Assembly (NCBI GenBank): GCA_000165345.1 | Contig: CM000430.1 | Coordinates: forward strand, 896,001-960,000 | Reading direction: 5' to 3' | Length of the DNA stretch: 64,000 nt | In this document: positions 40,407 to 58,451 of the stretch, piece after piece | Layout: each line of letters opens with the position of its first letter | Position numbering within the stretch: the first letter of the stretch is position 1 | Position numbers and translations under genes: made by a program | Notes under the pieces: generated by a model | Seen by the model: only the letters and a program-made list of their open reading frames with translations | Database searches by the model: none | What the model was told of the DNA's origin: nothing

Positions 40407-43400
40407 TCATTTATTGTTTAGTTTCCAATTACCTTGTGATTCCCAATCTTGGGATTGTTGTAATGGAGTTGACCAAAGCAAAAGTCTCTCTTCTAAGTCA
40501 ATATTGTCTTGAATGTCGTCTTGTAGCATGTCTAGAATCTCATCATCATTTTCAAAGTCGAAATTGTTCATATCACATCCTGTTAATTCAGGAATGTCTT
40601 GACTAGTGTAAGATATGTGATTATTATCATCTGGCTTGGATTGTTGGCCAAATGAATCCCATTCTGACAAAGCCTCTAAAATGCAACTATTTTCAATCTC
40701 ATTCAGTTGTTTTTCACTGAAGTTCAAAATGTTTAAGTTCTCATCCTTTTCAAGATCTGGAATAGTATGAATGGTTTGAAAAATCAAATTTGGAGAAATA
40801 TTTGAAAATCCTAAAGATCTATTATAAAAAGGAATTTTCTTAGAATTTTGCATGTCAATGAAAACTTTGTTAACAAAATGATTTACAAATTGCAATGTTT
40901 TGATTCCTCCAGAATATACTCTATTATTGATCATTTGTGTAAGAATTTTCTTTGGTATCGTTAAAAATTGATTGGGAGTTTTCACAGAAAGTGTTGATCT
41001 TAGTTCTAATGCTGACAAGAAAGATAAACCTTTCACTCCAGAAATTAGTTTTTTGACACTCTTCTCCAAATTTTGATCTTTTGTCAAAGTTCCAGAATAT
41101 TCTTCTAATAGTGTAATTGTTTGAAGTTGTCTAAGGTAACTTTGAAAAACAATCTGCATATTGGACCAATTCATATTCTGACAAAATGATATACATGAAA
41201 TACACATTGACAAAACTCCGGTATGGAGCTGTTGAAGATCTCTAACAGATATAAACTTGAACTTTGAAAGAATAACTTCCGTTGATAATCCATTCAAAAT
41301 TGATTTCATAATCTGTGATGCAAATAATCTTTGATGCCTTCTTAGAAACTCTGGCTCTTTAAGCTTTGGTGGGAGATTATCTTCGCATAGTTGAGAAGCC
41401 CAAGAAATCTGCTCTAAGTCAAAGCCAAGTCTAATCAATGAATGACGTTCTAAAATTGTCATTTCTTTAATATTATCATAAAGAACTTTCCAATCCAATC
41501 TAAAGAATGGTTGAGTACTAGTAGATGTGGGTTTGGATCCATTTGATATTTCATTTGGAGGAAAAGGAGTCACCAAGTAGGACATATAAGTCAAATCTCC
41601 TAAAAAAGTTGATTCCATATTTCTTCTAAGTTCATCATATAGCTCCAAACCTGTGGAAGGAGATAAACCTGAAGAAACAATAGCTTTTCCCAATTGAGTA
41701 CAGCAACAATTCAGTGTATAACCTCCAATTGAAATTGGGTTTGTTTTTTTCTCCCTATTCATTATCATCTTCTTTTCAAGTAAATAGCTTAAAGCTCTTT
41801 CTAATGCATCAATATTCTTAAGGTATTCGTGAGATAAGTCATTGTAAAGCTTAATTTGGTAAGACATTAAAGTAGATTCTGTCAACAAGTCCAAAATTGA
41901 GCCAGTATGTGATCCTTTATCTGGAATTTTTTCTTTATTATTCACGGATATATTCTGATCAAACTCAAATAGAACTGCAAGTATTTCTAAGATTAGCCTG
42001 GTAATTCCATTAGTATTAGTAAAGAAAGAACTCATCAAAGGTTTCATATCTGCAGTAATAAGCCCTAATGCATTTTCAACCTCCTCACTAACTTCCCTCC
42101 CTGGTTGCGATAGAGTCTCATTTACGAGAATGAAGCTCTCACCAAAAGCTCCTTTCTGGCCAGCTCTACCAGCTCTTCCTGACATTTGTTTGTAATCAAC
42201 ACACGTTAAAAAAGATTTTCCAATATTGATACCTCTGAAGATGACTCTTTTTGAAGGAAGATTGACTCCAGCTGCTAAAGTTGAAGTTGCTGTTAGTAAA
42301 GACAAGATACCATTTCTATACCCTTTCTCAACTATTCTTCTTTCAATATGAGATAAACCAGAATGGTGAAATCCTATCCCTTTGACTATGCAATCAATAA
42401 GAGTGTTATTGTTTTGAATAGATCTTTTTGAAAGAGAGGAGTTCTGCCTAATTTCTTCAGCTAACATATATCTCTGCCTCTCAACAGATCTTAAAGACTG
42501 CATAATCTGTTGCCTATTCGAACAATTTTCTATATCAATTCCTTCACAAAATTGTCTTTTTATGCAATTAGCAAAAAACAAAGCTGTAGACTCAACGGAG
42601 TACTTTGAAGGACAAAACACTAGTACACTTTCTCCTTTTTTCAAAGCCTCCCATCCTATTACCAACAACTCACTCATATCAACTATTGGGTATTTCCATC
42701 TACTAGAACCAATCTGATCAATATCAAAATCTGTCGAATTAAACTTAGAATTAACCTGATGAAAGTCCCAACTCATTACTTTGCTTAATGTATCTTGTAC
42801 GGAAGACCCTAATGTACTTTTGTTTTGATCCTTTCCTGGCTTAATATATGCCTTGCCTTTGATTACTATATGTTCCCTGAGTGGAACTGGACGAAAATTA
42901 CTCTGGTAAACTACTGCATCCAACCAAAGGCCAATATCTCTTAGATTTGGTAATGTTGCACTCATACCCACTATTTGTATTGTTCTTCCCTCGCCTTGTA
43001 ACTTACTCAATAGTCTCACTTTTGTTAGCATCACCTCGAGTATATATCCTCTTTGCTCATCCCCAAGTAAGTGTAATTCATCTACAATAATAATTCCCAA
43101 TCTCTTAAATAATATTCCATGCTGAATATAATAACTAATCAATGCATTTGCCTTTTCTATAGTTGCTACACCAATGTCAAATTCTTCAAAAAGCGGACTT
43201 TTACTTCCATAGTGAAATTCACTAATTCTAAGTCCACACACTTCTCCTCCAGCCTTATAGTAACTATCCCTTTTCTCTGATACCAAAGATACAAATGGGA
43301 AAACTACTAAAGCTGCTCTCCCACCTTCTAGAACTCTTTTATACATTAGCAACTCACTTACCAAAGTTTTGCCTCCACTTGTTGGAGCAGAATATACCAA

Positions 43401-43871
43401 ATTTCTGCCTTGTAGTACTCCAGGCTGGGTAATACACTCATACTGCCAATCATAAAGATTCCTTAGGCCTTTTTCTGAGTAATATTTTACTAATCTTTCA
43501 TCTATTCCTAAACTTTGCAAAGAATTACCTACCTGATTTTCAAAACTGTCTACTTTATTTTGAATAAACAAATTGTTATCGTCAAGCTCCATGTTGGCTT
43601 CGCCTGTCTCATTCAAGAGATCTGCCAGGATCTCTGCATCATCACTAACCAAGTTAGAATCAATCAATTCATCCTTCATAATTTCCTCCAAATTTTGAAT
43701 AATATTACTTATATCTTCTGCCCCACTCTCCTCATAATGGTCACTCATCCCAGCCAAATCCTCTATCATAGATTCATCTTCTTCCTGAATTTCGCTGAAT
43801 AACTGGCTATCATATAAATCTAAATCCAATAATTCTTTTATTTCATGAACTTCAATCAATTCTTGATTCAT
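40407..43871 (-). CDS. HELQ: HELQ/Hel308 (Mus308/PolQ-helicase family) superfamily-2 DNA helicase
   Basis: 1154 aa. [25 protein letters not shown] (Walker A), [25 protein letters not shown] (DExH), [18 protein letters not shown] and GRAGRAGQ. Collinear with the human POLQ/HELQ helicase domain ([26 protein letters not shown]...[24 protein letters not shown]...VGMSATLPN). No polymerase domain, so HELQ rather than POLQ. Confidence 0.85.
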   Translation of the reverse strand: [1154 protein letters not shown]

Positions 43872-44644: not shown

Positions 44645-45967
44645 ATGAGATGGAAATGGGTTGTTTCTAGTGTGGCCACACTATTAACATTGATTATCTC
44701 TGTGGTTAACATTATGCACCAGTATTTGAATCTATGTAAGCCTAAATTGCAGTTGTGCATATGTAGAATTTTAACAATGATTCCAGTATATGCAATAATA
44801 TCATATATATCATATTTGTTCGTGGATTATGCTTCACCATTGAATATAGTAAGAGACTGCTATGAAGGATATGTAATGTTCTCATTTTTGCAACTTTTGA
44901 TTTTTTATATGGGAGGTGACCAAGTCATCTTGTCAGTATTAGAGAGTAACAAGATTAAGGCTGAAATATGGCCACATCATCATTTTAACCACTCTCTAAG
45001 TATGGTTGGGCTGGCCTCAACAGCTGGGAGTATTGAATCAAATGAGGAAGAAATTTCAGTAAATATTATGGATATTTGCCCGGATTATTTTTGCGAGAAG
45101 AAGGATAACTTAGATGAAGTTTCTATTGATAGCGGGTTCCAAGGAGATGAACTAGCAAACCATCGTCTAAAGATCGCAAGATTCTACTCTTTTATCAAGT
45201 TAGGAGTCCTTCAATTTGTGATTTTGAAGCCAATTTCAGCGCTTATTTCACTTTTTCTGGAATCTATAGGATTGTATGGATCTGGATCATTTTCATTCAA
45301 GAGAGGATATCTATACATTACAGTTTTAAATAGTATATCAGTTTCTCTTTCAGTATACTCTCTGTTCCTACTATATATCTCAATTTCAGAGCAACTAGCA
45401 CCAATCAGACCAGTACTTAAATTCTTTTGCATTAAACTTATAATTTTTATGAGTTTTTGGCAATCTATCATCCTCTCTGTTCTCAGCCACTTTGGGATTT
45501 ACCCAGATGAGCCAAACTATACCATTAAACTTCATAACTGGCTCCTTACAATAGAAATGACAGTATGCGCAATAATTTATGGTATTGCATTTACAATCAA
45601 GAAAGACTTCAAAAACTACGTTGAAAGCAGACAAGGGTACAGCCAAGACGATTATAACACAGATAACCTTCAAGATTGTGAAAAAACTTGTCACAAGGAT
45701 TTATTTTCTGGAAAAGATAGTGGTCCTATGCGCAATGCTAACTTTCCTCCTCAGGCTTCTACCGACAAACCAAACCTCACCCTTAAAATCTCACATTTGC
45801 CATCCTCTATTTCCAAAAATATTAAACTTTATATATACAGGTTCACCTGCATAGTAAACCCTAAGGATATTATCCAAGATATTATCAGTGCCTTTAGGTT
45901 TCTTAAACAAATTAATAAGTCTCCTAATCCCGAAATAAAACTTGGAAATTCTGGCGCCACATTTTGA
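44645..45967 (+). CDS. TMEM184/OST-alpha (DUF300) family transporter-like membrane protein
   Basis: 440 aa, 7 TM helices. N-terminal signature ...CRILTMIPVYAIISYISYLF...IVRDCYEGYVMFSFLQLLIFYMGGDQ matches the TMEM184 consensus (R.I.MVPIYA..SW.SL....RD.YEAF.IY.F..L...YLGGE). Confidence 0.8.
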   Translation: MRWKWVVSSVATLLTLIISVVNIMHQYLNLCKPKLQLCICRILTMIPVYAIISYISYLFVDYASPLNIVRDCYEGYVMFSFLQLLIFYMGGDQVILSVLESNKIKAEIWPHHHFNHSLSMVGLASTAGSIESNEEEISVNIMDICPDYFCEKKDNLDEVSIDSGFQGDELANHRLKIARFYSFIKLGVLQFVILKPISALISLFLESIGLYGSGSFSFKRGYLYITVLNSISVSLSVYSLFLLYISISEQLAPIRPVLKFFCIKLIIFMSFWQSIILSVLSHFGIYPDEPNYTIKLHNWLLTIEMTVCAIIYGIAFTIKKDFKNYVESRQGYSQDDYNTDNLQDCEKTCHKDLFSGKDSGPMRNANFPPQASTDKPNLTLKISHLPSSISKNIKLYIYRFTCIVNPKDIIQDIISAFRFLKQINKSPNPEIKLGNSGATF

Positions 45968-46528: not shown

Positions 46529-47851
46529 ATGCAGAAAAGAAAGAAGAAATGGAAGCTGGCATTTTGTAACGCTCAAGAATGTGTGAATGCATTGGATTAT
46601 ATGCTTGAAAATAGTTTAGAGACTCTTCTAAATAAGCAAGAAAAACTTAGGGTTGTGGAAGGATTATCAGAAAGAGAAAAGGAGCTGAATATTAAACAAA
46701 ATGAGTTAAACTCAGCTCTAAATGAGGTAGAGGAAGGTTTGAGAAAAACCATCGAATTGACTTTACTTGAGATGAAAGAATTGTCGGAAGAATGCAGACA
46801 CCTTGAAAGAGAATTTACTAAAAAAGCCTCGAATATTCCAAATATCATTGAAAATTTGAATAAGAATGACACCAAATTTGATTCTGAATACCTAGGTAAG
46901 AAAGTTACAGTCGAAGATATACAAAAACTGCAGAATACAAGAAAACAATTACTAGAAGATCTTGAACAATTAAGAAAAGATGAAGAAACTCTCAATAAAG
47001 AGATACAAAACTTGGAGATTAAGTGGAATGCTTATAGAAAAAGAACTCAAAGACTTGAGACTGAAATATCACTTAAAAAAACTGAGACTAATCACCAGGC
47101 TATTCAGGTGGATGCTCATATTAATCGTCGTCTAAGTACTTGTAATAGTATTCGCTCTGATAAAGACAATGATCCAAATATAATGGAAGTAGACGTTATA
47201 CAAGAACAAATGGGAACAAGGAGGAAGAGAAGAGATAGTGTTGTAAAGTGGATTGGAAGACTCTCCATGAATAGTTCGTCTGAAGAGAAAACTAATCAAC
47301 TTTGTGATCATGAATTAGTTACAAATAATGTTAAGGAAGGTACCAAGATTGATAAATCAGATAATAATAACGATATAGAAGATAGAGACGAAGAAGTTCA
47401 AGGCGAGTTACAAGTGCTAAACTTACTAAGTCTAGTCAAGATTGAGCAACCTGAGTCTGACGAAACTTTGACCTCGAAGGCTGGACCTCCCAGCTCTACA
47501 TTAAAACTCAAAGTTGATCCTTCCCCCTTACTTTCCCAATTTTTGGACCCAAATTTTGTATATTGTTCTGATCTACAACCAATAAATGTGGATAAAGAAA
47601 ACTCGAGAAAATCTAATCAAGGACTCTTTTCTAAGGGAGCTTTGGATTTTTCATTAAAGGTCAGAAATCAATGTGATGGGAGTAAAAGCCTTGAAGAAAT
47701 TTCTCTATGTTCCCAAAATCAGGATGCACCAGAAAAATCACTTAATAATGAAGATATTGCGCTCTTTAACATTTTTGTTGGTGAACTTCAAAGAAATGAA
47801 AACATACCTGTATCATCTATTGGAAAGTTACTATGCAGTACACTTAAATAG
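46529..47851 (+). CDS. Hypothetical coiled-coil protein (KEN-box-containing). Minimal single-exon model; candidate 5' exons at 46297..46328 and 46390..46468
   Basis: 440-aa ORF starting at ATG 46529. Upstream, ATG(46297)...TTTACAG|GTAAGT, a 61-nt intron ending ...TTCCAG|, then exon 46390..46468 ending |GTGAGT, then a 66-nt intron ending AAATGCAG| at 46534. This joins in frame (32 + 79 nt = 37 codons) to codon 3 of the ORF, adding MISESFSEIYRTVQECCPVKNSLLDHSDILVNASDIK. Confidence 0.6.
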   Translation: MQKRKKKWKLAFCNAQECVNALDYMLENSLETLLNKQEKLRVVEGLSEREKELNIKQNELNSALNEVEEGLRKTIELTLLEMKELSEECRHLEREFTKKASNIPNIIENLNKNDTKFDSEYLGKKVTVEDIQKLQNTRKQLLEDLEQLRKDEETLNKEIQNLEIKWNAYRKRTQRLETEISLKKTETNHQAIQVDAHINRRLSTCNSIRSDKDNDPNIMEVDVIQEQMGTRRKRRDSVVKWIGRLSMNSSSEEKTNQLCDHELVTNNVKEGTKIDKSDNNNDIEDRDEEVQGELQVLNLLSLVKIEQPESDETLTSKAGPPSSTLKLKVDPSPLLSQFLDPNFVYCSDLQPINVDKENSRKSNQGLFSKGALDFSLKVRNQCDGSKSLEEISLCSQNQDAPEKSLNNEDIALFNIFVGELQRNENIPVSSIGKLLCSTLK

Positions 47852-47906: not shown

Positions 47907-50717
47907 TTATATTGATTTGTTCTTTTTTTTTATCTTTTGAATCAAAGCTATTTTAGTCCAAGGAGACAATTTACCTACATAACTAATAAAGTCTTTCCTA
48001 TGGTACCCTACATTCTTGGAACTTCTGATTTCTTTTGAAAAAATAAAGGGAAACTTGAAATCCTGACTATTGTAAGATACTCTGATAGATTTAAATATAC
48101 TTTCAAGCACTGATTCATCAATATCAATACTTCCAAGCTCCTGTAAATCTGATAAATAATAAACCTTTTTAAAGAGATCTATTTCTTCATCGTAAATAAA
48201 CTTGGAAGTTTCTTTCCAAAAATTATTAGTACTTGAGATTTTATTTGAAGTATTCAATTCGCTGTTTAAATCAATTCTAGTAACTAATTTGTCCCAAAGT
48301 TGATTGGCTTCATCACTCATTTTACTTTTGCAACTAGAAAGAGATTGCTTCTCCTCCTTATCAGTATTGATTAAGTACCTAAGTCTCATAATGTTATTTT
48401 CCAATACATTTTCACGTGAATCTTGATTTAAATCTCCATTAATGATCATCTCACCCATTACCTCCTCAACAAACTGTTCAAGATCACTCATTTTAGTTCT
48501 TAATGCATATTTGTACAATTTGTTCATTCTACAGAATCTAAAATCCTCATTAAAAGTGTTTCTAGCTATAGATAGGAGTTCATGGTGTCTATGTATTCCA
48601 AAAACATAAGTATTTGTATCTTCTAATATGTATTCAATATGTGAACTATCTGTATAGTTTGGAGAGAGCTTGCGAACTAAATAGTTTTGCTCAGTATCTG
48701 AGCTCAAAGCCTTGTTTGTATATCTATAAGAGTAGTTCATTAGTGCTGGAATTCCATATCTTTTTATGCTTCCTGGCTTTATTAATATCAGTGTATGTCT
48801 TCTTCCTTTTGATTTTGCCTCGTTAATTATTCTAAGCCTTGTGTAAGTCTTAATTCTTCTTTTCTCAATCCCATTTTGTGTGGAAAGTCTTCTTCTTTCT
48901 TTCTTTAAATATCTTTTTGTGAAAATATCTCTTTGAGAACTTTCTCCTTTCATCCTTCTATATAGGTCATAAAGCCTACTACTCCAATATTTGTCCGAGT
49001 TATAAATCAATAAATTGTAATCATCTTTTTCTAAAGTACTTGGAAGAGAATTAGGAATAACTTTTGATATAGGATTTTCATCACTCTTTTTCTTAGCAAT
49101 AATCATTGGCTTTGCATTTCCCAACTGTTTTGGAAGTACTTTTTTCGAAAAATTTGATTTGGATAATATATCCGATTTTGTAGTCACTGCTTTTGGAAAA
49201 TTTTTGGAAAACGTTTTAGTCAGTTCTTTATTTTGATCCAAATCTTCAATATTTGGTATATCATTCATCTTCTTTGCAGGAGGGCTCTTTTTTATCTCTG
49301 ATGCTTTTGATATACTACTCTTTGCCTTTCCATCTAAATCTGATAGATCCTTACTTTGTGCTCCTGTCGAATCCTTTGAATTCATCTTCTTAATAACTTC
49401 TTTTATAGGGGTATCTTTTGTATTTATTTCCTTAGTAAGAGTATCTTTATTCAGCAAAATGCTACTTTTTTTTAAAATTGGTGATTTTCCCAATAAAGAT
49501 GTGCTACTTTTTTCAACAACTTTTAAAGGTATACCTCCTTTAACATTTAGCAATGTGTCTTTTTTTAGAGTATCAAGAGTCTTAGCTTTAAGAATTTGAT
49601 TTTCAGTTGATGAACTGTTATCCAAAGATTTTGGTCCGCATATTTTAGTGAAATTGCTTATTTTAGAAGAAGTCTTAACTATACCAGAAGACTTTGCTTG
49701 AATATCAGATTTTGATTTTAGCTCAAAATTATCTTTATTCTCGTTAGGTTTTGTTATATTTAGTGACTTTTTCTTTTTTATTATAGATTCGTTTAATTCT
49801 CGTCTAGCCTCAATTGGGGACCTAATACTACTATCAAATTTCATCATTTTGATTGGATTCTTTTTTTCAGTTAATATAATTTTACAGTTTTCTTTTACAA
49901 CAGACTCGGAAGGTTGAATAATACCAGTATCATACTTCGGATCAGCCTTAATTGAAAGATTTCCCTTTTTTTCAGATAATTTACCAATAAATTTGGAGTA
50001 ACTTGATTTTTTTATTAAATGCCTTACTACCTCACTGTTTTTCACTAAAACTTCCTTCTTCTCAACATCAATTGTTACTCCTTTCTTCAAGCTTCCTTTA
50101 TCAGTAATCAAATCAATATTGAGCTTTTTTATACCTTTATTACGAAGATTATCTATTATTTCCTTGATAAATCTTTCAGCATTCTTCATGTATTCAGCCC
50201 TCCTTTTATTACCTTCAGAAGCTATATGAAGTTTATCATCCCTTAATTTCTGGAGTTTAGCTTTGCTATTTTTTAAATTATCTCTTGCTTTAACTACTTC
50301 CTTCTTTAAAATTTCTCTTAGAGCTTTTTCCCCTCTGGTAATTAACTCAATCCTATTAATTTTGAGAATATCCTTTAAAAATTCTCCCTTTTGTTTGATA
50401 TGCAGGCTTTTTCTTATTGTTTTTTCATTTTTGATTTTAATTTCGCGGATATGAAGCTGTCTTGCTTCTTCAAGAAGCCTATTCCTTCTGTTTATTAAGT
50501 TCTTTGGGCTGTTTTGGCCCCTATATGCATTTCTTTTTGAGAAAAATAACGGGTTATGAGCAACTCTCCTAAGTCTTCTCTTTCTAACTTCAGGCTTTCT
50601 AGATTTCCAAGATTCATCAACATCTTTCAATTTGATGATAGAAGTTGGCATCATTGATTCAACCTTATTAGTAGCTTTTTCTTTCTCTTTTCTAATATTT
50701 CCGAGAAAAGAGCTCAT
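47907..50717 (-). CDS. Hypothetical Lys/Arg-rich basic protein (936 aa as annotated), probably the 3' part of a longer gene continuing through 51196
   Basis: Genuine ATG at 50717. In this frame the upstream sequence stays open for 20 more codons, into the G5 run at 50757-50761. There it differs by one nucleotide from the frame of the upstream basic ORF 50750..51196. Confidence 0.6.
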   Translation of the reverse strand: MSSFLGNIRKEKEKATNKVESMMPTSIIKLKDVDESWKSRKPEVRKRRLRRVAHNPLFFSKRNAYRGQNSPKNLINRRNRLLEEARQLHIREIKIKNEKTIRKSLHIKQKGEFLKDILKINRIELITRGEKALREILKKEVVKARDNLKNSKAKLQKLRDDKLHIASEGNKRRAEYMKNAERFIKEIIDNLRNKGIKKLNIDLITDKGSLKKGVTIDVEKKEVLVKNSEVVRHLIKKSSYSKFIGKLSEKKGNLSIKADPKYDTGIIQPSESVVKENCKIILTEKKNPIKMMKFDSSIRSPIEARRELNESIIKKKKSLNITKPNENKDNFELKSKSDIQAKSSGIVKTSSKISNFTKICGPKSLDNSSSTENQILKAKTLDTLKKDTLLNVKGGIPLKVVEKSSTSLLGKSPILKKSSILLNKDTLTKEINTKDTPIKEVIKKMNSKDSTGAQSKDLSDLDGKAKSSISKASEIKKSPPAKKMNDIPNIEDLDQNKELTKTFSKNFPKAVTTKSDILSKSNFSKKVLPKQLGNAKPMIIAKKKSDENPISKVIPNSLPSTLEKDDYNLLIYNSDKYWSSRLYDLYRRMKGESSQRDIFTKRYLKKERRRLSTQNGIEKRRIKTYTRLRIINEAKSKGRRHTLILIKPGSIKRYGIPALMNYSYRYTNKALSSDTEQNYLVRKLSPNYTDSSHIEYILEDTNTYVFGIHRHHELLSIARNTFNEDFRFCRMNKLYKYALRTKMSDLEQFVEEVMGEMIINGDLNQDSRENVLENNIMRLRYLINTDKEEKQSLSSCKSKMSDEANQLWDKLVTRIDLNSELNTSNKISSTNNFWKETSKFIYDEEIDLFKKVYYLSDLQELGSIDIDESVLESIFKSIRVSYNSQDFKFPFIFSKEIRSSKNVGYHRKDFISYVGKLSPWTKIALIQKIKKKNKSI

Positions 50718-51392: not shown

Positions 51393-51617
51393 TGTTGCAC
51401 TTGTAATATTATTACTGTTGAGAGGTACCGAGGGTAAAAAAGAACTATATATGTATTTTTCTGAACAAGAACAAGACTGAAAGAGATTCTGCTGAATCTT
51501 TGCTCAATTTGGAAGAGCTTTTATCAGTTTTTTGTTCTTAACCAACTTTACGTGTTTTGTCTTTACAGCGTATTTAACAGCCGAAAATATATAGAGAGCA
51601 AAATAAAAAAAATTAAT

Positions 51618-54600
51618 ATGAGCTGGTGTGATCCATCTCATACAATTATTAGTTTGGAATTCGCATATGGCTACTTAAAGTTTATAATTCTATACTTTTT
51701 ATCTTTGGTGTTATGGGGTCTCTATAGGCATCACCTTCATCTTAAGGTAGAGGCTGAGATTCCCTCATCTACATCAGAAAAAGAAGCTCTGATTGGATTC
51801 AGAGACAGCATTATTGGAATTTCACTGAAATATATATATTCTGTCTTAATTTTACTGTCACAAATCTTTTTGTGCATTGTAGTTTGGAATGTTGTTTGTG
51901 CAACTTCATCTGAAGTCCAGCCTTATTGGACCACTAGAGCAAAAACATATATTATATTCTATATGTCAGGATTGTCGATGTGCCTAATACTTTACTTTTT
52001 GGAGCCTTTCTTTGAGACATTCTTTTATTTAAGAGAGACTTTGGACAAGTGTGCTTATGTAAAATCTAAAAAAAGACATGGTTTTACTCAAACTCTCAGA
52101 AGCACTCTCAATAAAGCCTTGCAGAGAGAAGCTTCGAATGTTCAACTTGAATCTAATGATTTAATTCTACCTCTGTTAAAAGTGCAAAAGAGAGCAGATA
52201 AGACTAGATTCATCTGCCATAACCAAGTTACATATACATTTTTAGAATCTGAATCAGGTTTTGTTTGTTGTGATCAAAGTAATCTAAATGAGCTTGTAGG
52301 GAAAGAAGGACTCCTTAATAATGGTCTAAATTCTGAAGAAATTAGTAGATTGTCAAATATTATTGGGAAAAATACTATAGATCTTGAAATTCCAGGAATA
52401 TCTCAAGCATTTGCTAAGGAACTACTCCACCCTATTAATATTCTCAGATTAGGTTCTCTTTGGCAAGGAATTTTTTTGAGATTCTATATCTGGGCAGTTC
52501 TTTGGGCAATAATGATTATTTTTACTACTTTTAAAACTCTTAAAGTGATTATATCTAACCAAGAAAACATTAAAAAGGCACTTGAAAATTATATTGGACG
52601 TCCCATCTCAGTCTTGAGAAACGGAAAAAAGGTCAGAATACCCTCCCATGATCTTGTTCCTGGCGATTTAATATTTTTGTCGCAAGACTTAACTGCTCCT
52701 TGTGACATTTATGTGGTTTCAGGATGTGTTGTAGTCAATGAATCTTTTATCACTGGTGAGTCAAACCCTATATTAAAGGTACAGATCGATAGAAACTCAT
52801 TTTCTAATATTACCAGTACTCAACCAGGTAATAAATCCTCGAGCATGACAAACTACGAACTGAAAAATCGAACATGTTCTACTTTGGATTCTATTAACTT
52901 GGATAAATTGGAAATTAACTCAAAAGATGAATGCAACCCTATTTCTCATGATTCTAAGGTTTTACATGAAGATAAAATCATACAAAAGCCCATTTTTATG
53001 GGTACTAAAATTATAAGCTCATTTTCATATGGTGACTACTCAAAAATAGCAATAGGAATTGCATTCAGAACTGGAATATACTCTTCTTATGGTCAATTGC
53101 TTTACAAGACTGTCCACTCATTCTCTAATATAAGCCAATACTCTGTCTCAAACGTGAAATATATCAGAAATCTTAAAGCACTATGGATTATTATGCTTTC
53201 ATCTGCATTTGCTGCAATTTTATACCAGAACCATTTACTTGGTTGGAGTACTGGGTCATTCTTCTTTGCTGTTGGAACCTTTATCCAGCTTTTACCTCTC
53301 TGGGCACCTTCATGTATTCAGTTTTCCCTTAATAAAAGTGTAGAAAGGCTTGTAAATCTGTTTTCATTGTCTTCTACTTTTCCAATGGATATTCCTTTAG
53401 CTGGGAAACTTAAAGTTTTATGTCTAGACAAAACAGGTACTCTTACTACAAACAAAATGATCTTTATTGGTGCAGCAAATGCTATAAAAAATAATAGCTT
53501 TGGATACCCGAATAATATTGCTCATCTTTTAGAGAATAGCAATCCAAATATCAATCTTGAACTTCAAAAAAATAAAGAATCCAAAAGTGTCCAACATATT
53601 GATCATAATAGAAATTCACTTAATATTTACGTTCATTACGAGCTCGTCTGGGAAACATCCACCGTATCATATGAAGAAGAAGATCCTCTAATTAATAAAT
53701 CTACTGGAATTCTTGTAAACCCAATTAGTTCTGAACCCAAATTCCTTCCTCCAATTATTAGCTCCGATTCTTTTTCTCCAGACGACCTTATTTACATTGG
53801 ACTTTGTTGTTGTCATAATATTGTTCCACAAATTACCAACAATGGAACTATTCTAATAGGTAACGATATAGACAAGGCATTATTCACTTCAACTAATGCC
53901 AAAATTAAAATATGCAATGAGAGAAGGTTCATTTCACTCACTGGAGCAAGCGATGAAGACTCAGGTTCAGTTGATAATATTTATGAATACCCAATCGAAG
54001 TTTTGAGAATTAATGAGTTCGATTGGAATAATCCTTGTATGTCTGTGGTAGTTCACCACCGAATATTTGACAGATATTACATTTTCTGTAAAGGATCCTT
54101 TGATGTTTTGACTAAATTCTCTCCAAATAAAGAGGAAATCCTTACCGAGAAACATAAATATCTCAATACTTCAAATAGTTTAGATACAGAGGATGAACAG
54201 GAGCTTGTTGATGCTTTTGAAGTCCTTAACTCCTCTGGTGAAATGGACAGCGACCTCTTAAATAAATACAATCACTCAAGATCCAACAATGTTCAAAAAC
54301 CTATAAGTCATATGAGTGAACATAATATTGTTGACGGTTACAGTAAATTGGGATACTATGTTATGGCAATGTCTTATAGAGAAATTAAAGACAAAGTTTT
54401 GATTGATGCACTTCTGAACAAGCCAAGATCTAATGTTTCTAGAAATACACTTGAATCTGATCTAACAATCATAAGCTATCTTCTTCTGCAAAATGATCTT
54501 AGACCAAAAACTAGAGAATTTATTGATTCTATCAAAATGTCAGGAATTAGGCCAGTCATCTTAACAGGTGACTCAGCATTCACAGCACTATCTGTTGCCC

Positions 54601-56084
54601 GAAAAGCAGGAATAATCTCTAATAAGAACCCTGTTGCAATTGGAGATACTATTATTGACATAACTGGAAAGGAAACAATCGTTTGGTATGATGCTATTGC
54701 TGGAAATAACATAGTAATCTCTCCGAACAAAATCTATGAGTCCACTGAATATAACTCTTTAGTTGTTACATCACGAGCTCTAATGTTATTAAGATCTAAA
54801 AAGTACTTTAGACCTTCTAATTTTGAAATGGCAAATATGATGGGTCCTTTATCAAACTTTAGTTTTTTAAAGACATATTGTAGACTTGAGAAATTCTCTT
54901 CTGAAGAGCTTTCTTCTCATTCTTTGTTTGACCTAGTCTTTGATAGAATCAAGATTTTTGCAAGATCAAATCCTGAACACAAAAGAATCGTTATTTCAGA
55001 ATTCAAAAAGAGAAATATTGTGACAGGAATGATTGGAGACGGAGTTAATGATTTACCTGCATTCAAAATGGCAGATGTTAGTATTTCAGTCCATGAGAAT
55101 TCGTATTATTTTAACAACTTTATAAATAATAATAATTCTATTCAAGAAGAATCCATTCAAAATCATGAAAATTTCAGTATTAATACAGAAAACTCTCCAA
55201 TGACATTGGCATTTTCTTCCTTCTCTATTGAGGCTGACAATATTATGAGAGTTCTTGACCTAATTCGAGAAGGTAGAGCTGCAATGGTTACTACAATTTC
55301 TCTTTTTATGTTTCTTTCCTCTCAAGGTGTATTTTATTCATTTTACAAGAATGTTTTATTTGCTATTGCTCAAGCTAACCTTCCTGTAATGATCTATGTA
55401 TTTATTGACGTATTTCTAGTATTTCCTTCTATTTGGTTAATGATCCTCTGCAAACCAAAGAAATACATTAACTCATACAGGCCAACAGGAGCTTTACTTG
55501 GTAAACGAACTATTATATCATTCCTAAGCTTATTGGGAACGTGTTTCTCATTTTATTATATTGTTATGACAAGACTACTCAACTCTCCTTGGATGATTCC
55601 TTCCCTTAATCACAATGCAGAGATACCAGTTGAAAGATGGTTTCAACGTCAAGATAATTTTGAAGCTTCCGTAACTTCCATTTGGATGGGACTCCAACTT
55701 TCTTCATTATCTCTCATTTTTTCCTTTGGAGGTAAATTCAGAGAGAGAGTTACTAAAAATAAGCGTTTAGTTTTATGGGTAATATGTTGCCATATTTTCC
55801 TTTTATATTTATGTATAAGCAGTCCAAATGCCCTTACTTGTCTATTTAGAGTAAATTGTACTGACCAAATTGATAGATTTTGGGAGTTTCAAATCTTTGG
55901 TTATAATATTTTGAAAATTACAGGAGGGAAATTTCAAGGAGCTGGATCTCATAATGTATTTCCATTGGCTTGGAAAGTGGAATTTATTTTTTGGAACTAC
56001 TTTTCAATTTTATCCATGTCACTTATTTATTGGTGGATATCCTCAAACTCTAATTTAAAAAAAGTAAAATTTAGTGTATACTAA
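51618..56084 (+). CDS. Divergent P-type cation-transporting ATPase (subtype uncertain: P2-like catalytic motifs, long N-terminal membrane extension)
   Basis: The ORF-track start 51552 is GTG; the ATG is at 51618, giving 1488 aa. TGES (FITGESNPILK), phosphorylation site CLDKTGTLTTNKM and hinge GDGVNDLPAFKMADVSISV are all present. The M4 motif reads LLPLWAPS where P2 ATPases have IPEGLP. Three to four extra hydrophobic helices precede the actuator domain. Confidence 0.85.
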   Translation: MSWCDPSHTIISLEFAYGYLKFIILYFLSLVLWGLYRHHLHLKVEAEIPSSTSEKEALIGFRDSIIGISLKYIYSVLILLSQIFLCIVVWNVVCATSSEVQPYWTTRAKTYIIFYMSGLSMCLILYFLEPFFETFFYLRETLDKCAYVKSKKRHGFTQTLRSTLNKALQREASNVQLESNDLILPLLKVQKRADKTRFICHNQVTYTFLESESGFVCCDQSNLNELVGKEGLLNNGLNSEEISRLSNIIGKNTIDLEIPGISQAFAKELLHPINILRLGSLWQGIFLRFYIWAVLWAIMIIFTTFKTLKVIISNQENIKKALENYIGRPISVLRNGKKVRIPSHDLVPGDLIFLSQDLTAPCDIYVVSGCVVVNESFITGESNPILKVQIDRNSFSNITSTQPGNKSSSMTNYELKNRTCSTLDSINLDKLEINSKDECNPISHDSKVLHEDKIIQKPIFMGTKIISSFSYGDYSKIAIGIAFRTGIYSSYGQLLYKTVHSFSNISQYSVSNVKYIRNLKALWIIMLSSAFAAILYQNHLLGWSTGSFFFAVGTFIQLLPLWAPSCIQFSLNKSVERLVNLFSLSSTFPMDIPLAGKLKVLCLDKTGTLTTNKMIFIGAANAIKNNSFGYPNNIAHLLENSNPNINLELQKNKESKSVQHIDHNRNSLNIYVHYELVWETSTVSYEEEDPLINKSTGILVNPISSEPKFLPPIISSDSFSPDDLIYIGLCCCHNIVPQITNNGTILIGNDIDKALFTSTNAKIKICNERRFISLTGASDEDSGSVDNIYEYPIEVLRINEFDWNNPCMSVVVHHRIFDRYYIFCKGSFDVLTKFSPNKEEILTEKHKYLNTSNSLDTEDEQELVDAFEVLNSSGEMDSDLLNKYNHSRSNNVQKPISHMSEHNIVDGYSKLGYYVMAMSYREIKDKVLIDALLNKPRSNVSRNTLESDLTIISYLLLQNDLRPKTREFIDSIKMSGIRPVILTGDSAFTALSVARKAGIISNKNPVAIGDTIIDITGKETIVWYDAIAGNNIVISPNKIYESTEYNSLVVTSRALMLLRSKKYFRPSNFEMANMMGPLSNFSFLKTYCRLEKFSSEELSSHSLFDLVFDRIKIFARSNPEHKRIVISEFKKRNIVTGMIGDGVNDLPAFKMADVSISVHENSYYFNNFINNNNSIQEESIQNHENFSINTENSPMTLAFSSFSIEADNIMRVLDLIREGRAAMVTTISLFMFLSSQGVFYSFYKNVLFAIAQANLPVMIYVFIDVFLVFPSIWLMILCKPKKYINSYRPTGALLGKRTIISFLSLLGTCFSFYYIVMTRLLNSPWMIPSLNHNAEIPVERWFQRQDNFEASVTSIWMGLQLSSLSLIFSFGGKFRERVTKNKRLVLWVICCHIFLLYLCISSPNALTCLFRVNCTDQIDRFWEFQIFGYNILKITGGKFQGAGSHNVFPLAWKVEFIFWNYFSILSMSLIYWWISSNSNLKKVKFSVY

Positions 56085-56189: not shown

Positions 56190-58451
56190 TTACTTATTAA
56201 TTTCTTCGATACCTAATTTAGCTAACATTTTTGGTATTGAAGTAGGCGTCCAATTTTCGGAGTTATCGTCTTTTTTAATTTCAGGATCTTTAATGAAAAT
56301 GACGCCCTGGTTAATGTAAAAGAATAGCTTTAAAAAAATTGGATTTGATTTAAAGTAGCTATTTTGAACCTTATTTTTAGATTCTGAATGATGTTCTTCA
56401 TATTCTATAGAATATATTTGCCTTCCATGGTCATTTTTTCTCCCACATTGCTTAATAACTAATCCCATTTCATCGGAAATCCATTCCAATGCCCCTAAAA
56501 TTAATGAGTCATCTTTGAGATTCATAAATTCTGGGATTTCTTCATCATGGTCCTTAAAAGACTCATAGTCAATCCAATCATTTGTCTTCTTTTTAATTTC
56601 TGGATCTAAGTCAGAATAGAAATTAATGTGATAGTCTATATAAATTAGTCCTTTAGTCAGAAAAGCTTTGCTTTTGGCAGATGCCATGGCTCCTTTGGAA
56701 AAAATTTCTCTCCAAAACTGATACCATTCAAGTAAATCTTTATATAAATTAACAAACTGTTCTTTATTGGCAGAACTTGGGGTCTCCTCTCTTGAATATT
56801 GTGTTAAACCATACTCATTTCTGATGTTGGATAACTTTAATTCAAGAGCTTTGATCCATTTGGGACCAATTACATCAGTAAATATCTGAGACACTAAAGA
56901 TTTACCAACCAAATCCTTGTTGAACCATAATTCAAGATGAGAAAAACAGTCTAATTGTTGTAATTTGTGGTTTTGTTCAACTTGAAGGTCAATTTTAAAA
57001 TAAGAAAGTAACTTTGGAAATATCTTTGACAAAATAATATTGTCAAATTCTTGTTTAATAAGATTGCTACGGTATGTCTCATGATCAAAAAATCCAATAG
57101 TTTCAAAATCTTCAGCTTCATAATCTTTTTCGGTTTCTAATATAGGTTTCCAAATAGTTAATAGTGATAATGGCCATTCTTCTGGAGGCTCCCATTCTTC
57201 CAAAGCATCATCAATGTGTTTTGATATAACTTTTGATATTTGATATCCCATTCCAAATTTGTAGTAATAAGGAAGCCATCTAAATAACCATTTATACTTG
57301 GAACTTTCAGAAATTCCTTCTGAGTTAGAGTCAATTTTATTGAGTTGAAGTTGATGGATCTGTTTATTCCAAATGATTTGCATTAGATTAGTTTTGATGA
57401 ATTCTGAAGGAATTAAATGAACCCAAATACTCAATAATGAGATTCCATATTCATTTTCTTTAATTGGATCCCACGAACAGATAAAATAAACTTCCAAATA
57501 CTTCCCTACAGTGTCTAATAAAAGTTGTTCAAAACATAGCTTGGAATCGTACTCTTTCTCTGTTCTGGAAGTTTGTAGATTGACAAATAAAGCCTTTATG
57601 GCTATCCAAGCAGAAATTCCAAAATCAGGGTCTAGTTCCATATTCTTTTCTTTTTTATATAACTTTTGCAATGAAACTTTAAGAATATCTCTTACAATTG
57701 AGCAGTAAGGTAAATAAGATTTAGAAACTTCTTTTGAAGATGCATCACTACAGGAATCCAATACTCTATTAAAACTTTCTGAGAACTCTTGTACAACTTT
57801 TTCAAGAGAGTCCATCTGATCTTGAAAATCTTCGTTCTCAACTGAAGGGATATCTCCTTGCTCTTCAAATAAATTAACTATTTCATCCTCCATAATCTTT
57901 TCTAAATCATAGTGAAGTTTAAGAAAAATCCTTTGAATTTGTTTAGTGGTAATACTTAGATTCTCCATTATTGTTTTTTTTTCTTTTAAATTATCCAAGG
58001 AGCTGCTTTGATATTCAATTTCCAACTGTTTCTCATTAAAATAATCCTGCAATACTTTTCTATTTTGTTCACAGGCTTCTCTTTGTAAAGAAACAGACTC
58101 CATAATATCGTTTAGAAATGTTTTTTTTGGAAATATTTGATAAATTTTTGCTTCGGGGTCTTGATTTATTACCTCAGCCAGTTCATTTATGCTTGTTTTT
58201 TGTTTCTTGTTTTTTTCCTCAATATTTTTCACTTCTGTTGATTTATTTTCAAATTTATCAGATTTATTAAAACTATTATCGCGTTCAATCGCAATACCAA
58301 GATTTGCTGGCCTTATTTTAACTTGAATTGGCTCTGATATTCCACTTCCATCCACTCCAAGTCCTCCTCCTTTGAATCCCATCTTCCTAATAATATCAAA
58401 CCCCTTGCCATATTTTGCCCTTAAATCTTCTGATCCTTTAGATTCTTTCAT
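56190..58451 (-). CDS. TFIP11/Ntr1 (Spp382)-like G-patch spliceosome-disassembly factor
   Basis: 753 aa. N-terminal G-patch (GKGFDIIRKMGFKGGGLGVDGSGISEPIQVKIR). C-terminal GCFC-like region with matches to TFIP11: SIWVHLIPSEFIKTNL (compare SWVHIIPVWILDNIL), KWLFRWLP (compare HPWLPL), and terminal ...FYINQGVIFIKD...NWTPTSIPKMLAKL (compare [29 protein letters not shown]). Confidence 0.7.
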   Translation of the reverse strand: MKESKGSEDLRAKYGKGFDIIRKMGFKGGGLGVDGSGISEPIQVKIRPANLGIAIERDNSFNKSDKFENKSTEVKNIEEKNKKQKTSINELAEVINQDPEAKIYQIFPKKTFLNDIMESVSLQREACEQNRKVLQDYFNEKQLEIEYQSSSLDNLKEKKTIMENLSITTKQIQRIFLKLHYDLEKIMEDEIVNLFEEQGDIPSVENEDFQDQMDSLEKVVQEFSESFNRVLDSCSDASSKEVSKSYLPYCSIVRDILKVSLQKLYKKEKNMELDPDFGISAWIAIKALFVNLQTSRTEKEYDSKLCFEQLLLDTVGKYLEVYFICSWDPIKENEYGISLLSIWVHLIPSEFIKTNLMQIIWNKQIHQLQLNKIDSNSEGISESSKYKWLFRWLPYYYKFGMGYQISKVISKHIDDALEEWEPPEEWPLSLLTIWKPILETEKDYEAEDFETIGFFDHETYRSNLIKQEFDNIILSKIFPKLLSYFKIDLQVEQNHKLQQLDCFSHLELWFNKDLVGKSLVSQIFTDVIGPKWIKALELKLSNIRNEYGLTQYSREETPSSANKEQFVNLYKDLLEWYQFWREIFSKGAMASAKSKAFLTKGLIYIDYHINFYSDLDPEIKKKTNDWIDYESFKDHDEEIPEFMNLKDDSLILGALEWISDEMGLVIKQCGRKNDHGRQIYSIEYEEHHSESKNKVQNSYFKSNPIFLKLFFYINQGVIFIKDPEIKKDDNSENWTPTSIPKMLAKLGIEEINK

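What the first reader, a model, noticed from the sequence alone, without database searches (positions are those of the whole stretch)
51618..56084. P-type ATPase with non-canonical M4 ion-site motif (PLWAP) and an extra N-terminal membrane domain
All catalytic hallmarks are intact (TGES, DKTGTLTTN, GDGVND), so the pump is probably active. The M4 helix motif that unwinds to form the ion-binding site reads LLPLWAPS. P2 ATPases have IPEGLP (the Glu coordinates Ca2+/Na+), P5A has PPELP and P3 has PIAMP. Only P5B pumps (PPALP, polyamine transporters) similarly lack an acidic residue there. Together with 3-4 additional N-terminal helices (P5-like) and a P2-like phosphorylation loop, this is a mosaic I cannot place in a known subfamily, so the substrate is not inferable by homology.
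Basis: partly seen in the sequence, partly recalled or inferred. Interest (0 to 1): 0.6.

Follow-up and report, generated by a model that had tools for sequence, protein, structure and literature searches.

The report
Cryptosporidium P5C-type pump CpATPase3
This gene is the already named Cryptosporidium parvum pump CpATPase3, a member of the recently defined P5C branch of P-type ATPases, and its odd PLWAP membrane motif is the normal signature of the apicomplexan part of that branch, not a one-off mosaic.

Summary
An intact 1488-aa ORF (51618-56084, +) carries TGES, DKTGTLTTN, GDGVND, an M4 sequence LLPLWAPS and three extra N-terminal helices. The interpretation that it cannot be placed in a subfamily is outdated.

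The protein is 100% identical to C. parvum Iowa II 'P-type ATPase3'. An exhaustive profile search and my own trees put it in an apicomplexan+chromerid clade (bootstrap 98). That clade sits in a large non-P5B group (100 against P5B). A 2025 paper (PMC12217143) named this group P5C-ATPases.

All 20 sequences of the apicomplexan clade have P-[VILM]-[W/Y]-x-[PST] in register with PPALP (P5B) and PEGLP (P2). AlphaFold puts PLWAP at the M4 helix break. The 'P2-like' loops are changes derived within Cryptosporidium, not mosaicism.

The only characterised member, Toxoplasma TgFLP12, exports fatty acid from the apicoplast. Cryptosporidium has no apicoplast, and this orthologue group has also lost three pocket residues that other P5C pumps keep. 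The real substrate therefore remains open. A hydrophobic or anionic organic cargo is most likely; a polyamine or a metal cation is unlikely.

Known gene, known clade: low novelty. The motif and pocket analysis is a modest addition.

The parts
51618..56084 (+). CDS of CpATPase3 (1488 aa plus stop), single exon
   Evidence: ORF list. 100% identity over 100% of length to C. parvum Iowa II 'P-type ATPase3 cation transport ATPase, signal peptide'. Same gene called on record CP029781.1.
51654..51758 (+). N-terminal helix a (aa 13-47), an extra TM ahead of the N-terminal domain. It is probably what the database annotation calls a 'signal peptide'.
   Evidence: AlphaFold helix with pLDDT above 90; hydropathy peak. 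Non-apicomplexan P5C members carry a signal peptide and ectodomain before the equivalent helix, which fits a luminal N-terminus.
51810..51998 (+). N-terminal helices b and c (aa 65-94 and 97-127), a TM hairpin comparable to Ma/Mb of P5A
   Evidence: AlphaFold helices joined by a 2-residue turn. Hydropathy shows three segments in P5C against one in P5B.
52029..52268 (+). Strands of the P5-type N-terminal domain (aa 138-217, plus strand aa 58-62)
   Evidence: AlphaFold strands. The profile match to P5B structures begins at aa ~195-206.
52431..52586 (+). M1-M2 hairpin (aa 272-323), with R288 (52479-52481) in the luminal turn
   Evidence: AlphaFold models. R/K is present here in 9/9 other apicomplexan/chromerid P5C and 5/5 orthologues, where P5B has D/E/N/Q.
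52752..52763 (+). TGES dephosphorylation loop of the A domain
53250..53363 (+). M4 (aa 545-582), unwound at L559-W562
   Evidence: Helix break in both AlphaFold models at pLDDT ~90.
53295..53309 (+). PLWAP, the M4 kink motif (P560 L561 W562 A563 P564)
   Evidence: In register with PPALP (P5B), [SNP]PLLP (other P5C) and PEGLP (P2). W or Y at position 3 in 20/20 apicomplexan/chromerid P5C.
53427..53453 (+). DKTGTLTTN phosphorylation motif (D604)
54090..54098 (+). KGS motif of the N domain (K825)
   Evidence: Invariant or nearly invariant columns K825 and G826.
54564..54572 (+). TGD motif of the P domain
   Evidence: Invariant columns G984 and D985.
55035..55052 (+). GDGVND hinge motif
   Evidence: Invariant G1140 D1141 G1142 N1144 D1145. 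The V and the following LPAFK are derived within Cryptosporidium.
55248..55445 (+). M5-M6 (aa 1211-1276). Contains M1231 (normally Lys), Q1236 (normally Tyr), K1244 (a P5C-typical basic residue), V1257 (normally Glu/Asp) and the retained D1264 (55407-55409).
   Evidence: AlphaFold helices; site frequencies per group.
55503..56045 (+). M7-M10 (aa 1296-1476)
   Evidence: AlphaFold helices and hydropathy.
55839..55859 (+). CLFRVNC motif in the long loop between M9 and M10. The loop is inferred to be luminal.
   Evidence: The pattern C-x-[FWVM]-[RHK]-x-[NQ]-C is found in 17/17 apicomplexan and Cryptosporidium sequences, at least 39/85 other P5C and 0/50 P5B. The topology is inferred by counting helices in the model.

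Best explanation
The ORF encodes CpATPase3, a catalytically competent P5C-type P-type ATPase. It has three N-terminal TM helices, a P5-type N-terminal domain and the ten-helix core. It is one of three Cryptosporidium-specific paralogues of the single ancestral apicomplexan P5C gene. Other descendants of that gene are Toxoplasma TgFLP12 and Plasmodium ATPase3.

PLWAP is the clade's normal version of the M4 kink, P-hydrophobic-Trp-x-Pro. Position 2 is hydrophobic where P2 pumps have the ion-binding Glu. Position 3 is a bulky Trp where P5A has Glu and P5B has Ala.

Mechanism, by analogy with all P-type ATPases (inferred): ATP phosphorylates D604, the E1P-to-E2P change opens a cleft between M1/M2, M4 and M6 to the luminal or exoplasmic side, cargo binding triggers TGES-dependent dephosphorylation, and the cargo is released to the cytosolic side.

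Cargo (inferred, moderate confidence): a hydrophobic or amphipathic organic molecule, probably anionic, such as a free fatty acid or a related lipid. A metal cation or a polyamine is unlikely.

Location (speculative): a secretory or endomembrane compartment or the parasite surface, because Cryptosporidium has no apicoplast.
For: Shown here:
- The protein is identical to the annotated C. parvum P-type ATPase3.
- All catalytic motifs are present and conserved.
- The best sequence and fold matches are P5 pumps, not P2. With the orthologue profile, P5B scores 223 bits, P5A 174 and P2 126. Foldseek gives ATP13A2 1e-46, P5A ~1e-41 and P2 1e-33.
- In an exhaustive profile search of 1.84 billion proteins, the nearest relatives outside the orthologues are Theileria, Babesia, Plasmodium, Neospora, Cardiosporidium, gregarines and Chromera (315-443 bits). 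Oomycete, ichthyosporean, mucoromycete, perkinsid and Amoebophrya proteins come next, ahead of most of the canonical P5B (best P5B ~273 bits).
- NJ trees give P5C against P5B at 100, apicomplexa plus Chromera at 98, and the three Cryptosporidium paralogue groups together at 86.
- The M4 motif is shared by the whole clade and lies at the helix break in the models.
- The polyamine ligands of P5B are not conserved. Ypk9 D630 aligns to G553, Y1157 to Q1236 and D1177 to V1257. ATP13A2 W251 aligns to G284 and D254 to L287.
- Basic residues R288 and K1244 sit near the luminal mouth where P5B is acidic or neutral.

From the literature: PMC12217143 defines the P5C clade and includes PF3D7_0504000 and duplicated Cryptosporidium copies. 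It shows that TgFLP12 exports C14:0 from the apicoplast and restores fatty-acid uptake in yeast fat1-delta.
Against: - No experiment on the Cryptosporidium protein was available to me.
- Cryptosporidium lacks the apicoplast and FASII that give TgFLP12 its role. The authors themselves call fatty-acid export a derived state.
- The ATPase3 orthologue group has lost three pocket residues that other apicomplexan P5C keep: the M5 Lys is Met, the M5 Tyr is Gln, and the M6 Glu is Val. Its cargo may therefore differ from that of TgFLP12.
- My trees are neighbour-joining, contain no P5A sequences, and give only 62-68 support for some deep nodes in the larger dataset.
- I assigned Neospora P0183 as the TgFLP12 orthologue from contig size and remembered synteny, not from a test.
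- The role I give to R288, K1244 and W562 comes from alignment and secondary structure only. I had no coordinates to measure contacts.
Confidence: 0.6

Rival explanations
1. It is a neofunctionalised P5C pump. After the Cryptosporidium-specific duplications, the ATPase3 copy changed its binding pocket and now carries a different organic cargo from TgFLP12. Candidates would be another lipid, a lipid-like host metabolite or a peptide segment. The cargo cannot be read from homology.
For: Three paralogue groups exist in Cryptosporidium. Only the ATPase3 orthologues have Q1236 and V/S1257. All Cryptosporidium copies lack the M5 Lys that is found in 8/9 other apicomplexan P5C, 62/85 other P5C (as K or R) and 45/50 P5B. 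There is no apicoplast for the TgFLP12 role.
Against: The signature positions shared with the fatty-acid exporter lineage are all retained and invariant among orthologues: P560, W562, R288, K1244, D1264 and G553. This argues for a related class of substrate.
Confidence: 0.22
2. It is an inorganic-cation pump, as the database name 'cation transport ATPase' implies. The P2-like DKTGTLTTN and GDGVND loops would reflect this.
For: The database annotation. There is superficial identity of two loops to P2 pumps. One intramembrane Asp (D1264) remains.
Against: The position of the P2 ion-binding Glu in M4 is Leu, and there is no acidic residue in M4. The Pfam Cation_ATPase_N and Cation_ATPase_C domains typical of P2 are absent. 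P2 pumps score far below P5 in both sequence and fold searches. The P2-like loops are not ancestral in the clade.
Confidence: 0.07
3. It acts like a P5A pump, as a dislocase for transmembrane helices or signal peptides in the ER. This was speculated for the Plasmodium ATPase3/ATPase1 proteins.
For: Wiser 2025 argues that the Plasmodium proteins look ER-localised and model equally well on Spf1. The N-terminal half of my model hits Spf1 marginally best (7.5e-18 against 1.3e-16). The helix b/c hairpin resembles Ma/Mb of P5A.
Against: The P5A signature PP(E/D)LPx(E/D) is absent, and a Trp occupies the Glu position. Sequence similarity is higher to P5B than to P5A. The only experimental data for the clade point to fatty-acid transport at the apicoplast outer membrane.
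Confidence: 0.07
4. It is a canonical P5B polyamine exporter with a degenerate motif.
For: The top hits among solved structures are Ypk9 and ATP13A2. Some of the literature files ATPase3 under P5B.
Against: It is separated from the PPALP clade with bootstrap 99-100. Only one of the four Ypk9 spermine ligands is kept, and the ATP13A2 ligands D463, D254, W251 and D960 are all replaced. PF12409 is not detected. Basic residues replace acidic ones at the luminal mouth.
Confidence: 0.04

Closest known systems
TgFLP12 (TGGT1_289070), Toxoplasma gondii P5C-ATPase (PMC12217143)
   Same: Same named subfamily, P5C. Same apicomplexan subclade in my trees, through the Neospora, Plasmodium and Chromera homologues. 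The putative Neospora orthologue and the Plasmodium homologue have the same M4 type, PVWTP, and share the M2 Arg/Lys, G553, K1244, D1264, the three N-terminal hydrophobic segments and the CxFRxNC loop.
   Different: TgFLP12 sits in the outermost apicoplast membrane and exports FASII-made C14:0. Cryptosporidium has neither the organelle nor the pathway. CpATPase3 lacks the M5 Lys, the M5 Tyr and the M6 Glu that the coccidian, haemosporidian and piroplasm proteins keep. I did not have the Toxoplasma sequence itself.
Plasmodium ATPase3 (PF3D7_0504000) and ATPase1
   Same: Co-orthologous lineage. The P. cynomolgi orthologue scores 385 bits with the Cryptosporidium profile and has SQILPVWTP in M4. 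The substrate is also unknown.
   Different: The Plasmodium proteins have very long low-complexity inserts and keep the M5 Lys, M5 Tyr and M6 Glu. They are described as P5B by Wiser 2025 and as P5C by PMC12217143.
P5B polyamine pumps (human ATP13A2, Ypk9)
   Same: Best-matching solved structures. They share the P5 N-terminal domain, the ten-helix core, the M4 kink in the same register and the retained M6 Asp (D967/D1184 aligns to D1264).
   Different: PPALP against PLWAP. The acidic and aromatic polyamine ligands are replaced. P5B has one membrane-dipping N-terminal segment instead of three helices. P5B has no CxFRxNC loop. The two form separate clades.
P5A helix dislocases (Spf1, ATP13A1)
   Same: P5 fold. 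An N-terminal TM hairpin is inserted in the N-terminal domain, Ma/Mb in P5A and helices b/c here.
   Different: P5A has PPELPxE, and a Trp replaces that Glu here. One further N-terminal helix is present here. Sequence scores are lower than for P5B.
P4 lipid flippases (M4 motif PISL)
   Same: From my own knowledge, not tested here: P4 pumps also have a hydrophobic residue (Ile) at the position of the P2 ion-binding Glu, and they carry amphipathic lipid from the exoplasmic to the cytosolic side.
   Different: No P4 pump appears among the sequence or fold hits above P2 pumps. No Cdc50-type subunit requirement is known for P5C. This is a resemblance in principle only.

Membership tests
P-type ATPase superfamily | DKTGT phosphorylation site, TGES, TGD and GDGxND motifs, and the E1-E2_ATPase plus HAD folds | tested here: met
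   All motifs located. Pfam PF00122 at 1.7e-16 and PF00702 at 4e-12. AlphaFold model with pTM 0.77 matches pump structures.
P5 ATPases (general) | Closest relatives are P5 pumps, and an N-terminal beta-domain precedes M1 | tested here: met
   P5B and P5A are the top hits among solved structures in both sequence and fold searches. Strands at aa 138-217 precede M1.
P5 ATPases (general) | PPxxP in M4 and the extended FDKTGTLT signature | tested here: not met
   M4 is PLWAP, so the second Pro is Leu. The signature reads CLDKTGTLT in C. parvum, although C. muris and most P5C have CFDKTGTLT.
P5B (polyamine pumps) | (V)PPALP motif with the upstream Asp (ALDLIT) | tested here: not met
   The sequence is GTFIQLLPLWAP. 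The Asp position is G553, whereas Asp is present in 47/50 P5B.
P5B (polyamine pumps) | Acidic and aromatic spermine ligands in M2, M5 and M6 | tested here: not met
   Only D1264 is kept. W251 aligns to G, D254 to L, Y1157 to Q and D1177/D960 to V.
P5B (polyamine pumps) | Membership of the P5B clade, and the PF12409 N-terminal domain | tested here: not met
   The PPALP clade is separate at bootstrap 99-100. PF12409 is absent from this protein and its orthologues but present in the P5B hits.
P5A (helix dislocases) | PP(E/D)LPx(E/D) motif in M4 | tested here: not met
   PLWAPSC has no acidic residue.
P5A (helix dislocases) | Two extra TM helices (Ma/Mb) inserted in the N-terminal domain, and a P-domain arm | tested here: inconclusive
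   A b/c hairpin follows strand 58-62 as in P5A, but a third helix precedes it. The arm was not examined, and no P5A sequence was available for the tree.
P5C (PMC12217143) | Phylogenetic grouping with TgFLP12/PF3D7_0504000 and apart from P5A and P5B. This is the only criterion the authors give. | tested here: met
   It groups with Plasmodium, Neospora, Theileria, Babesia and Chromera homologues at bootstrap 98, and the whole group separates from P5B at 100. The paper itself reports duplicated Cryptosporidium copies inside P5C. Separation from P5A rests on the paper and on score differences, not on my tree.
P5C (features proposed here, not by the authors) | Three N-terminal hydrophobic helices, a CxFRxNC motif in the M9-M10 loop, and no Asp before the M4 kink | tested here: met
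P5C, TgFLP12-type function | Apicoplast outer-membrane location and fatty-acid export | not testable with these tools
   Needs localisation and transport assays. The organism lacks an apicoplast.
P2 cation pumps | PEGL(P) with the ion-binding Glu in M4, and the Cation_ATPase_N and Cation_ATPase_C domains | tested here: not met
   Leu sits at the Glu position. The Pfam N- and C-terminal domains are absent. P2 pumps score lowest.

The most novel reading that the evidence does not exclude
After two Cryptosporidium-specific duplications, the ATPase3 copy remodelled the P5C binding pocket. It lost the M5 Lys, the M5 Tyr and the M6 Glu, but kept the clade's Trp in M4 and the basic residues at the luminal mouth. 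On this reading it now imports a host-derived lipid or fatty acid, or another amphipathic metabolite, across a parasite surface or secretory-organelle membrane. That would make it a lineage-specific nutrient-salvage pump in an organism that cannot make fatty acids de novo.
Probability: 0.25. Interest if true: 0.6.

Novelty: already known. Interest (0 to 1): 0.3.

Why it matters
P5C pumps are absent from animals, which makes them plausible drug targets in apicomplexan parasites. Cryptosporidium keeps three copies even though it has lost the organelle where the only characterised member works, so these copies are a natural test of what the ancestral P5C cargo was.

The analysis gives concrete, mutable positions for testing specificity: W562, L561, R288, K1244, D1264, and the Cryptosporidium-specific M1231, Q1236 and V1257.

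It also shows that the database name 'cation transport ATPase' and the 'P5B' label used in part of the literature are probably misleading. As a discovery, however, the gene and its clade are already published.

Tried and rejected
- The third homologue search, seeded with P0123 (M4 PPELP) to obtain P5A references, returned only rumen-ciliate-like metagenome proteins. These fall inside the P5B clade. My trees therefore contain no P5A.
- The 150-sequence alignment A4 was too large to be copied to the script machine. I realigned with MAFFT locally.
- Full-text searches for 'CpATPase3', for the 2002 cloning paper and for FUPA families found nothing usable. The Parasitologia 2025 paper is not held. 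No supplements are held for PMC12217143.
- Shifted M4 alignment: rejected. HMMER, two MAFFT runs and two AlphaFold models agree on the register.
- Orthology of Cryptosporidium paralogue 2 (PLYLT) to the second coccidian paralogue (PLWLP/PLYLP): considered because the motifs are similar. The tree groups paralogues by lineage at bootstrap 86 each.
- Fold searches do not discriminate P5A from P5B for this protein.
- The two adjacent 440-aa ORFs upstream are not paralogues.

Full report
**What is there.** The window is AT-rich (about 30% GC) and holds long uninterrupted ORFs. The ORF listing starts at a GTG at 51552 because it uses the bacterial code. The first ATG is at 51618 and the stop ends at 56084, which gives 1488 aa. 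This protein is 100% identical over its full length to 'P-type ATPase3 cation transport ATPase, signal peptide' of Cryptosporidium parvum Iowa II. The same gene is called near one end of a 992-kb C. parvum chromosome record. From my own memory, this is CpATPase3, cloned by LaGier, Keithly and Zhu (Int J Parasitol 2002). I could not retrieve that paper.

**The observation.**
- TGES, aa 379-382
- LLPLWAPS, aa 558-565
- DKTGTLTTN, aa 604-612
- GDGVND, aa 1140-1145
- KGS and TGD are also present.

Pfam finds only the generic E1-E2_ATPase and HAD domains. It finds neither the P2 N- and C-terminal domains nor the P5B N-terminal domain PF12409. In the 8 full-length orthologues from Cryptosporidium species, only 43-47% identical overall between C. 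parvum and the gastric species, the M4 stretch GTFIQ-LP-[LI]-WAP is conserved. P560, W562, A563 and P564 are invariant. The feature is therefore real and under constraint.

**Register of the motif.** HMMER aligns PLWAP without gaps to the PPALP of the P5B pump Ypk9. Two independent MAFFT alignments place it in one column block with [SNP]PLLP, PPALP and the PEGLP of P2 pumps. Two AlphaFold models were made, one of aa 236-1415 (pLDDT 77, pTM 0.77) and one of aa 1-600 (pLDDT 76.5). Both break the M4 helix at L559-W562, with local pLDDT near 90.
- P560 is the universal M4 proline.
- L561 occupies the position of the ion-binding Glu of P2 pumps.
- W562 occupies the position that is Glu in P5A and Ala in P5B.
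- No canonical motif is hidden elsewhere.

**Where it belongs.** Against solved structures the order is the same in every search.

| Search | P5B | P5A | P2 |
|---|---|---|---|
| Single sequence | 3e-43 | ~1e-33 | 1e-23 |
| Orthologue profile, bits | 223 | 174 | 126 |
| Foldseek | 1e-46 | ~1e-41 | 1e-33 |

An exhaustive profile search of 1.84 billion representative proteins shows a clear tier of nearest relatives at 315-443 bits. Cluster look-ups name them as:
- Theileria, Babesia, Plasmodium cynomolgi, Neospora and Cardiosporidium
- the gregarines Digyalum and Ancora
- Chromera
- two further Cryptosporidium paralogue groups: P0173 in C. andersoni and C. muris, and P0174/P0181 in C. felis, C. 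xiaoi and C. bovis.

A second, much larger tier at roughly 230-315 bits comes from oomycetes, an ichthyosporean, Mucoromycota and Zoopagomycota, Perkinsus, Amoebophrya and an amoebozoan. Canonical P5B pumps enter only from ~273 bits downward and interleave with the lower part of that tier.

**Trees.** I built neighbour-joining trees on trimmed alignments.
- Dataset 1 had 158 sequences, 881 columns and 200 bootstraps. The PPALP clade had support 99, and everything else fell outside it.
- Dataset 2 used E-INS-i with 57 sequences, 979 columns and 500 bootstraps. It gave:
  - P5C against P5B: 100
  - alveolate members: 89
  - apicomplexa plus Chromera: 98
  - the two coccidian paralogues together: 86
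  - the three Cryptosporidium paralogue groups together: 86
  - ATPase3 with paralogue 3: 99.

**This clade is already named.** PMC12217143 (Nat Commun 2025) calls it P5C-ATPases. According to that paper:
- it is present in fungi, mosses, diatoms, oomycetes and alveolates
- it includes PF3D7_0504000
- it shows independent duplications in Cryptosporidium and in coccidians.

The paper's member TgFLP12 lies in the outermost apicoplast membrane. Its loss traps C14:0 in the organelle, and it restores fatty-acid uptake in yeast fat1-delta. Another recent paper still files the Plasmodium proteins under P5B, with unknown substrate, and doubts that they carry polyamines.

**What the motif means within the clade.** Column counts:

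| Position | Apicomplexan/chromerid P5C | Other P5C | P5B |
|---|---|---|---|
| M4 positions 1-5 | P-[VILM]-[W/Y]-x-[PST] in 20/20 (W in 18) | [SNP]-P-[LM]-L-P | P-P-[AS]-L-P |
| Upstream Asp that binds spermine | Gly | Phe/Tyr | Asp in 47/50 |
| R288, luminal M1-M2 turn | R/K in 9/9 others and 5/5 orthologues | not conserved | mostly D/E/N/Q |
| K1244, near the luminal end of M5 | K/R in 8/9 | K/R in 47/85 | Val/Ile |
| D1264 in M6 | kept | kept | kept |

The clade thus replaces the acidic, cation-attracting lining of P5B with hydrophobic and basic residues. This fits an anionic amphipathic cargo such as a fatty acid. That reading is my inference from alignment and secondary structure. I had no coordinates to measure contacts.

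**Not a mosaic.** The 'P2-like' loops are derived inside Cryptosporidium. P5C pumps generally have CFDKTGTLTK(E/D/Q) and MCGDGGNDCGAL. C. muris ATPase3 has CFDKTGTLTNS and GDGINDWPALK. Paralogue P0173 keeps GDGGNDCGAL. C. muris and C. serpentis even read SGET for TGES.

**The N-terminal domain.** Hydropathy finds three hydrophobic segments before the N-terminal domain in most apicomplexan and other P5C proteins, against one in P5B. AlphaFold models three long helices at aa 13-47, 65-94 and 97-127 with pLDDT above 90. A short strand at aa 58-62 lies between helices a and b, and the remaining strands of the domain follow helix c. I read this as a P5A-like hairpin (b/c) inserted in the domain, plus one additional helix (a) that puts the N-terminus on the luminal side. 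Many fungal, oomycete and ichthyosporean members carry a signal peptide and a Cys-rich ectodomain before helix a, which fits that topology. The total would be 13 helices, whereas the TgFLP12 authors predicted 12. A further P5C-associated feature is a C-x-F-R-x-N-C motif in the long M9-M10 loop. It is present in 17/17 apicomplexan and Cryptosporidium sequences, at least 39/85 other P5C and 0/50 P5B.

**What stays open.** The ATPase3 orthologue group differs from the rest of its own clade at three pocket positions:
- The M5 Lys is Met. Lys or Arg is present in 8/9 apicomplexan, 62/85 other P5C and 45/50 P5B sequences. All three Cryptosporidium paralogue groups lack it.
- The M5 Tyr is Gln.
- The M6 Glu/Asp is Val.

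Cryptosporidium also lacks the apicoplast, so the function of TgFLP12 cannot simply be transferred. The authors of PMC12217143 suggest that a rhoptry-located paralogue might explain why Cryptosporidium retains the family.

My best account is an active P5C pump that moves a hydrophobic, probably anionic organic cargo from the luminal or exoplasmic side to the cytosolic side. A neofunctionalised cargo is the main rival. Cation pumping, polyamine export and helix dislocation are each poorly supported.

**Limits.** The trees are distance-based and lack P5A sequences. Separation from P5A rests on the published ML tree and on score differences. Assigning Neospora P0183 as the TgFLP12 orthologue is an inference from contig size and remembered synteny. 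No experimental data for the Cryptosporidium protein were accessible.

**Verdict.** It is wrong that the protein is unplaceable or a mosaic. The gene and its clade are already in the literature, so novelty is low. The residue-level signature is a modest, testable addition.

Noticed in passing
P0173 (C. andersoni/C. muris, 1425 aa); P0174 and P0181 (C. felis, C. xiaoi/C. bovis, ~1270 aa): Cryptosporidium has two more P5C paralogue groups. Both have Ser in place of the M6 Asp that is otherwise almost universal in P5 pumps. Paralogue 2 has YPLYLT in M4, and paralogue 3 has FLDKTGT/LFDKTGT. They may be even more divergent in function than ATPase3.
   Followed up: partly
P0242 (Neospora), P0223 (Besnoitia), P0251 (Eimeria): The second coccidian P5C paralogue has M4 LLPLWLP or LPLYLP, strikingly like Cryptosporidium LLPLWAP and PLYLT. 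It also has a ~100-residue insert between M4 and DKTGT and lacks the CxFRxNC motif. The tree nevertheless groups paralogues by lineage, so the motif similarity may be convergent or ancestral.
   Followed up: partly
P0010 (Gongronella), P0037 (Piptocephalis), P0189/P0190 (oomycetes), P0193 (Amoebidium): Non-alveolate P5C pumps begin with a signal peptide and a Cys-rich ectodomain of ~150 residues ahead of the three N-terminal helices. I know of no other P-type ATPase class with an extracytosolic N-terminal domain like this.
   Followed up: no
P0177 (3228 aa; Amoebophrya-like sequence, source organism not looked up): One predicted protein carries two P5C C-terminal motifs and parts of two pump units. 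It is either a tandem fusion or a gene-model or assembly artefact.
   Followed up: no
P0123, P0337, P0396, P0036, P0022 (metagenome, ciliate-like): A well-supported group inside the P5B clade has M4 PPELP, PPSLP or LPESLP. The third M4 residue alone is therefore not a safe marker for P5A against P5B.
   Followed up: partly
alignment A1, C. muris and C. serpentis orthologues (P0008, P0007): The A-domain loop reads SGET instead of TGES in the gastric Cryptosporidium species. This is an unusual variant of a motif that is normally invariant.
   Followed up: no
window 13604-16090 (-) and 44645-45967 (+): Two other lipid or solute-related genes lie in the window: a patatin-like phospholipase with DUF3336, and an OST-alpha/Solute_trans_a family membrane protein. 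There is no evidence that they are linked to the pump.
   Followed up: no
window 47907-50717 (-), 5684-8086 (+), 46529-47851 (+): Three long ORFs (936, 800 and 440 aa) have no Pfam match. The 936-aa one, directly upstream of the pump on the opposite strand, is Lys/Ser-rich and of low complexity. The two adjacent 440-aa ORFs are unrelated despite their equal length.
   Followed up: partly
window 8103-12533 (-), 40407-43871 (-), 56190-58451 (-), 405-1754 (+): Ordinary eukaryotic neighbours: an SNF2-family helicase, a POLQ-like DEAD/DEAH helicase, a G-patch/GCFC protein and an EF-hand protein.
   Followed up: no
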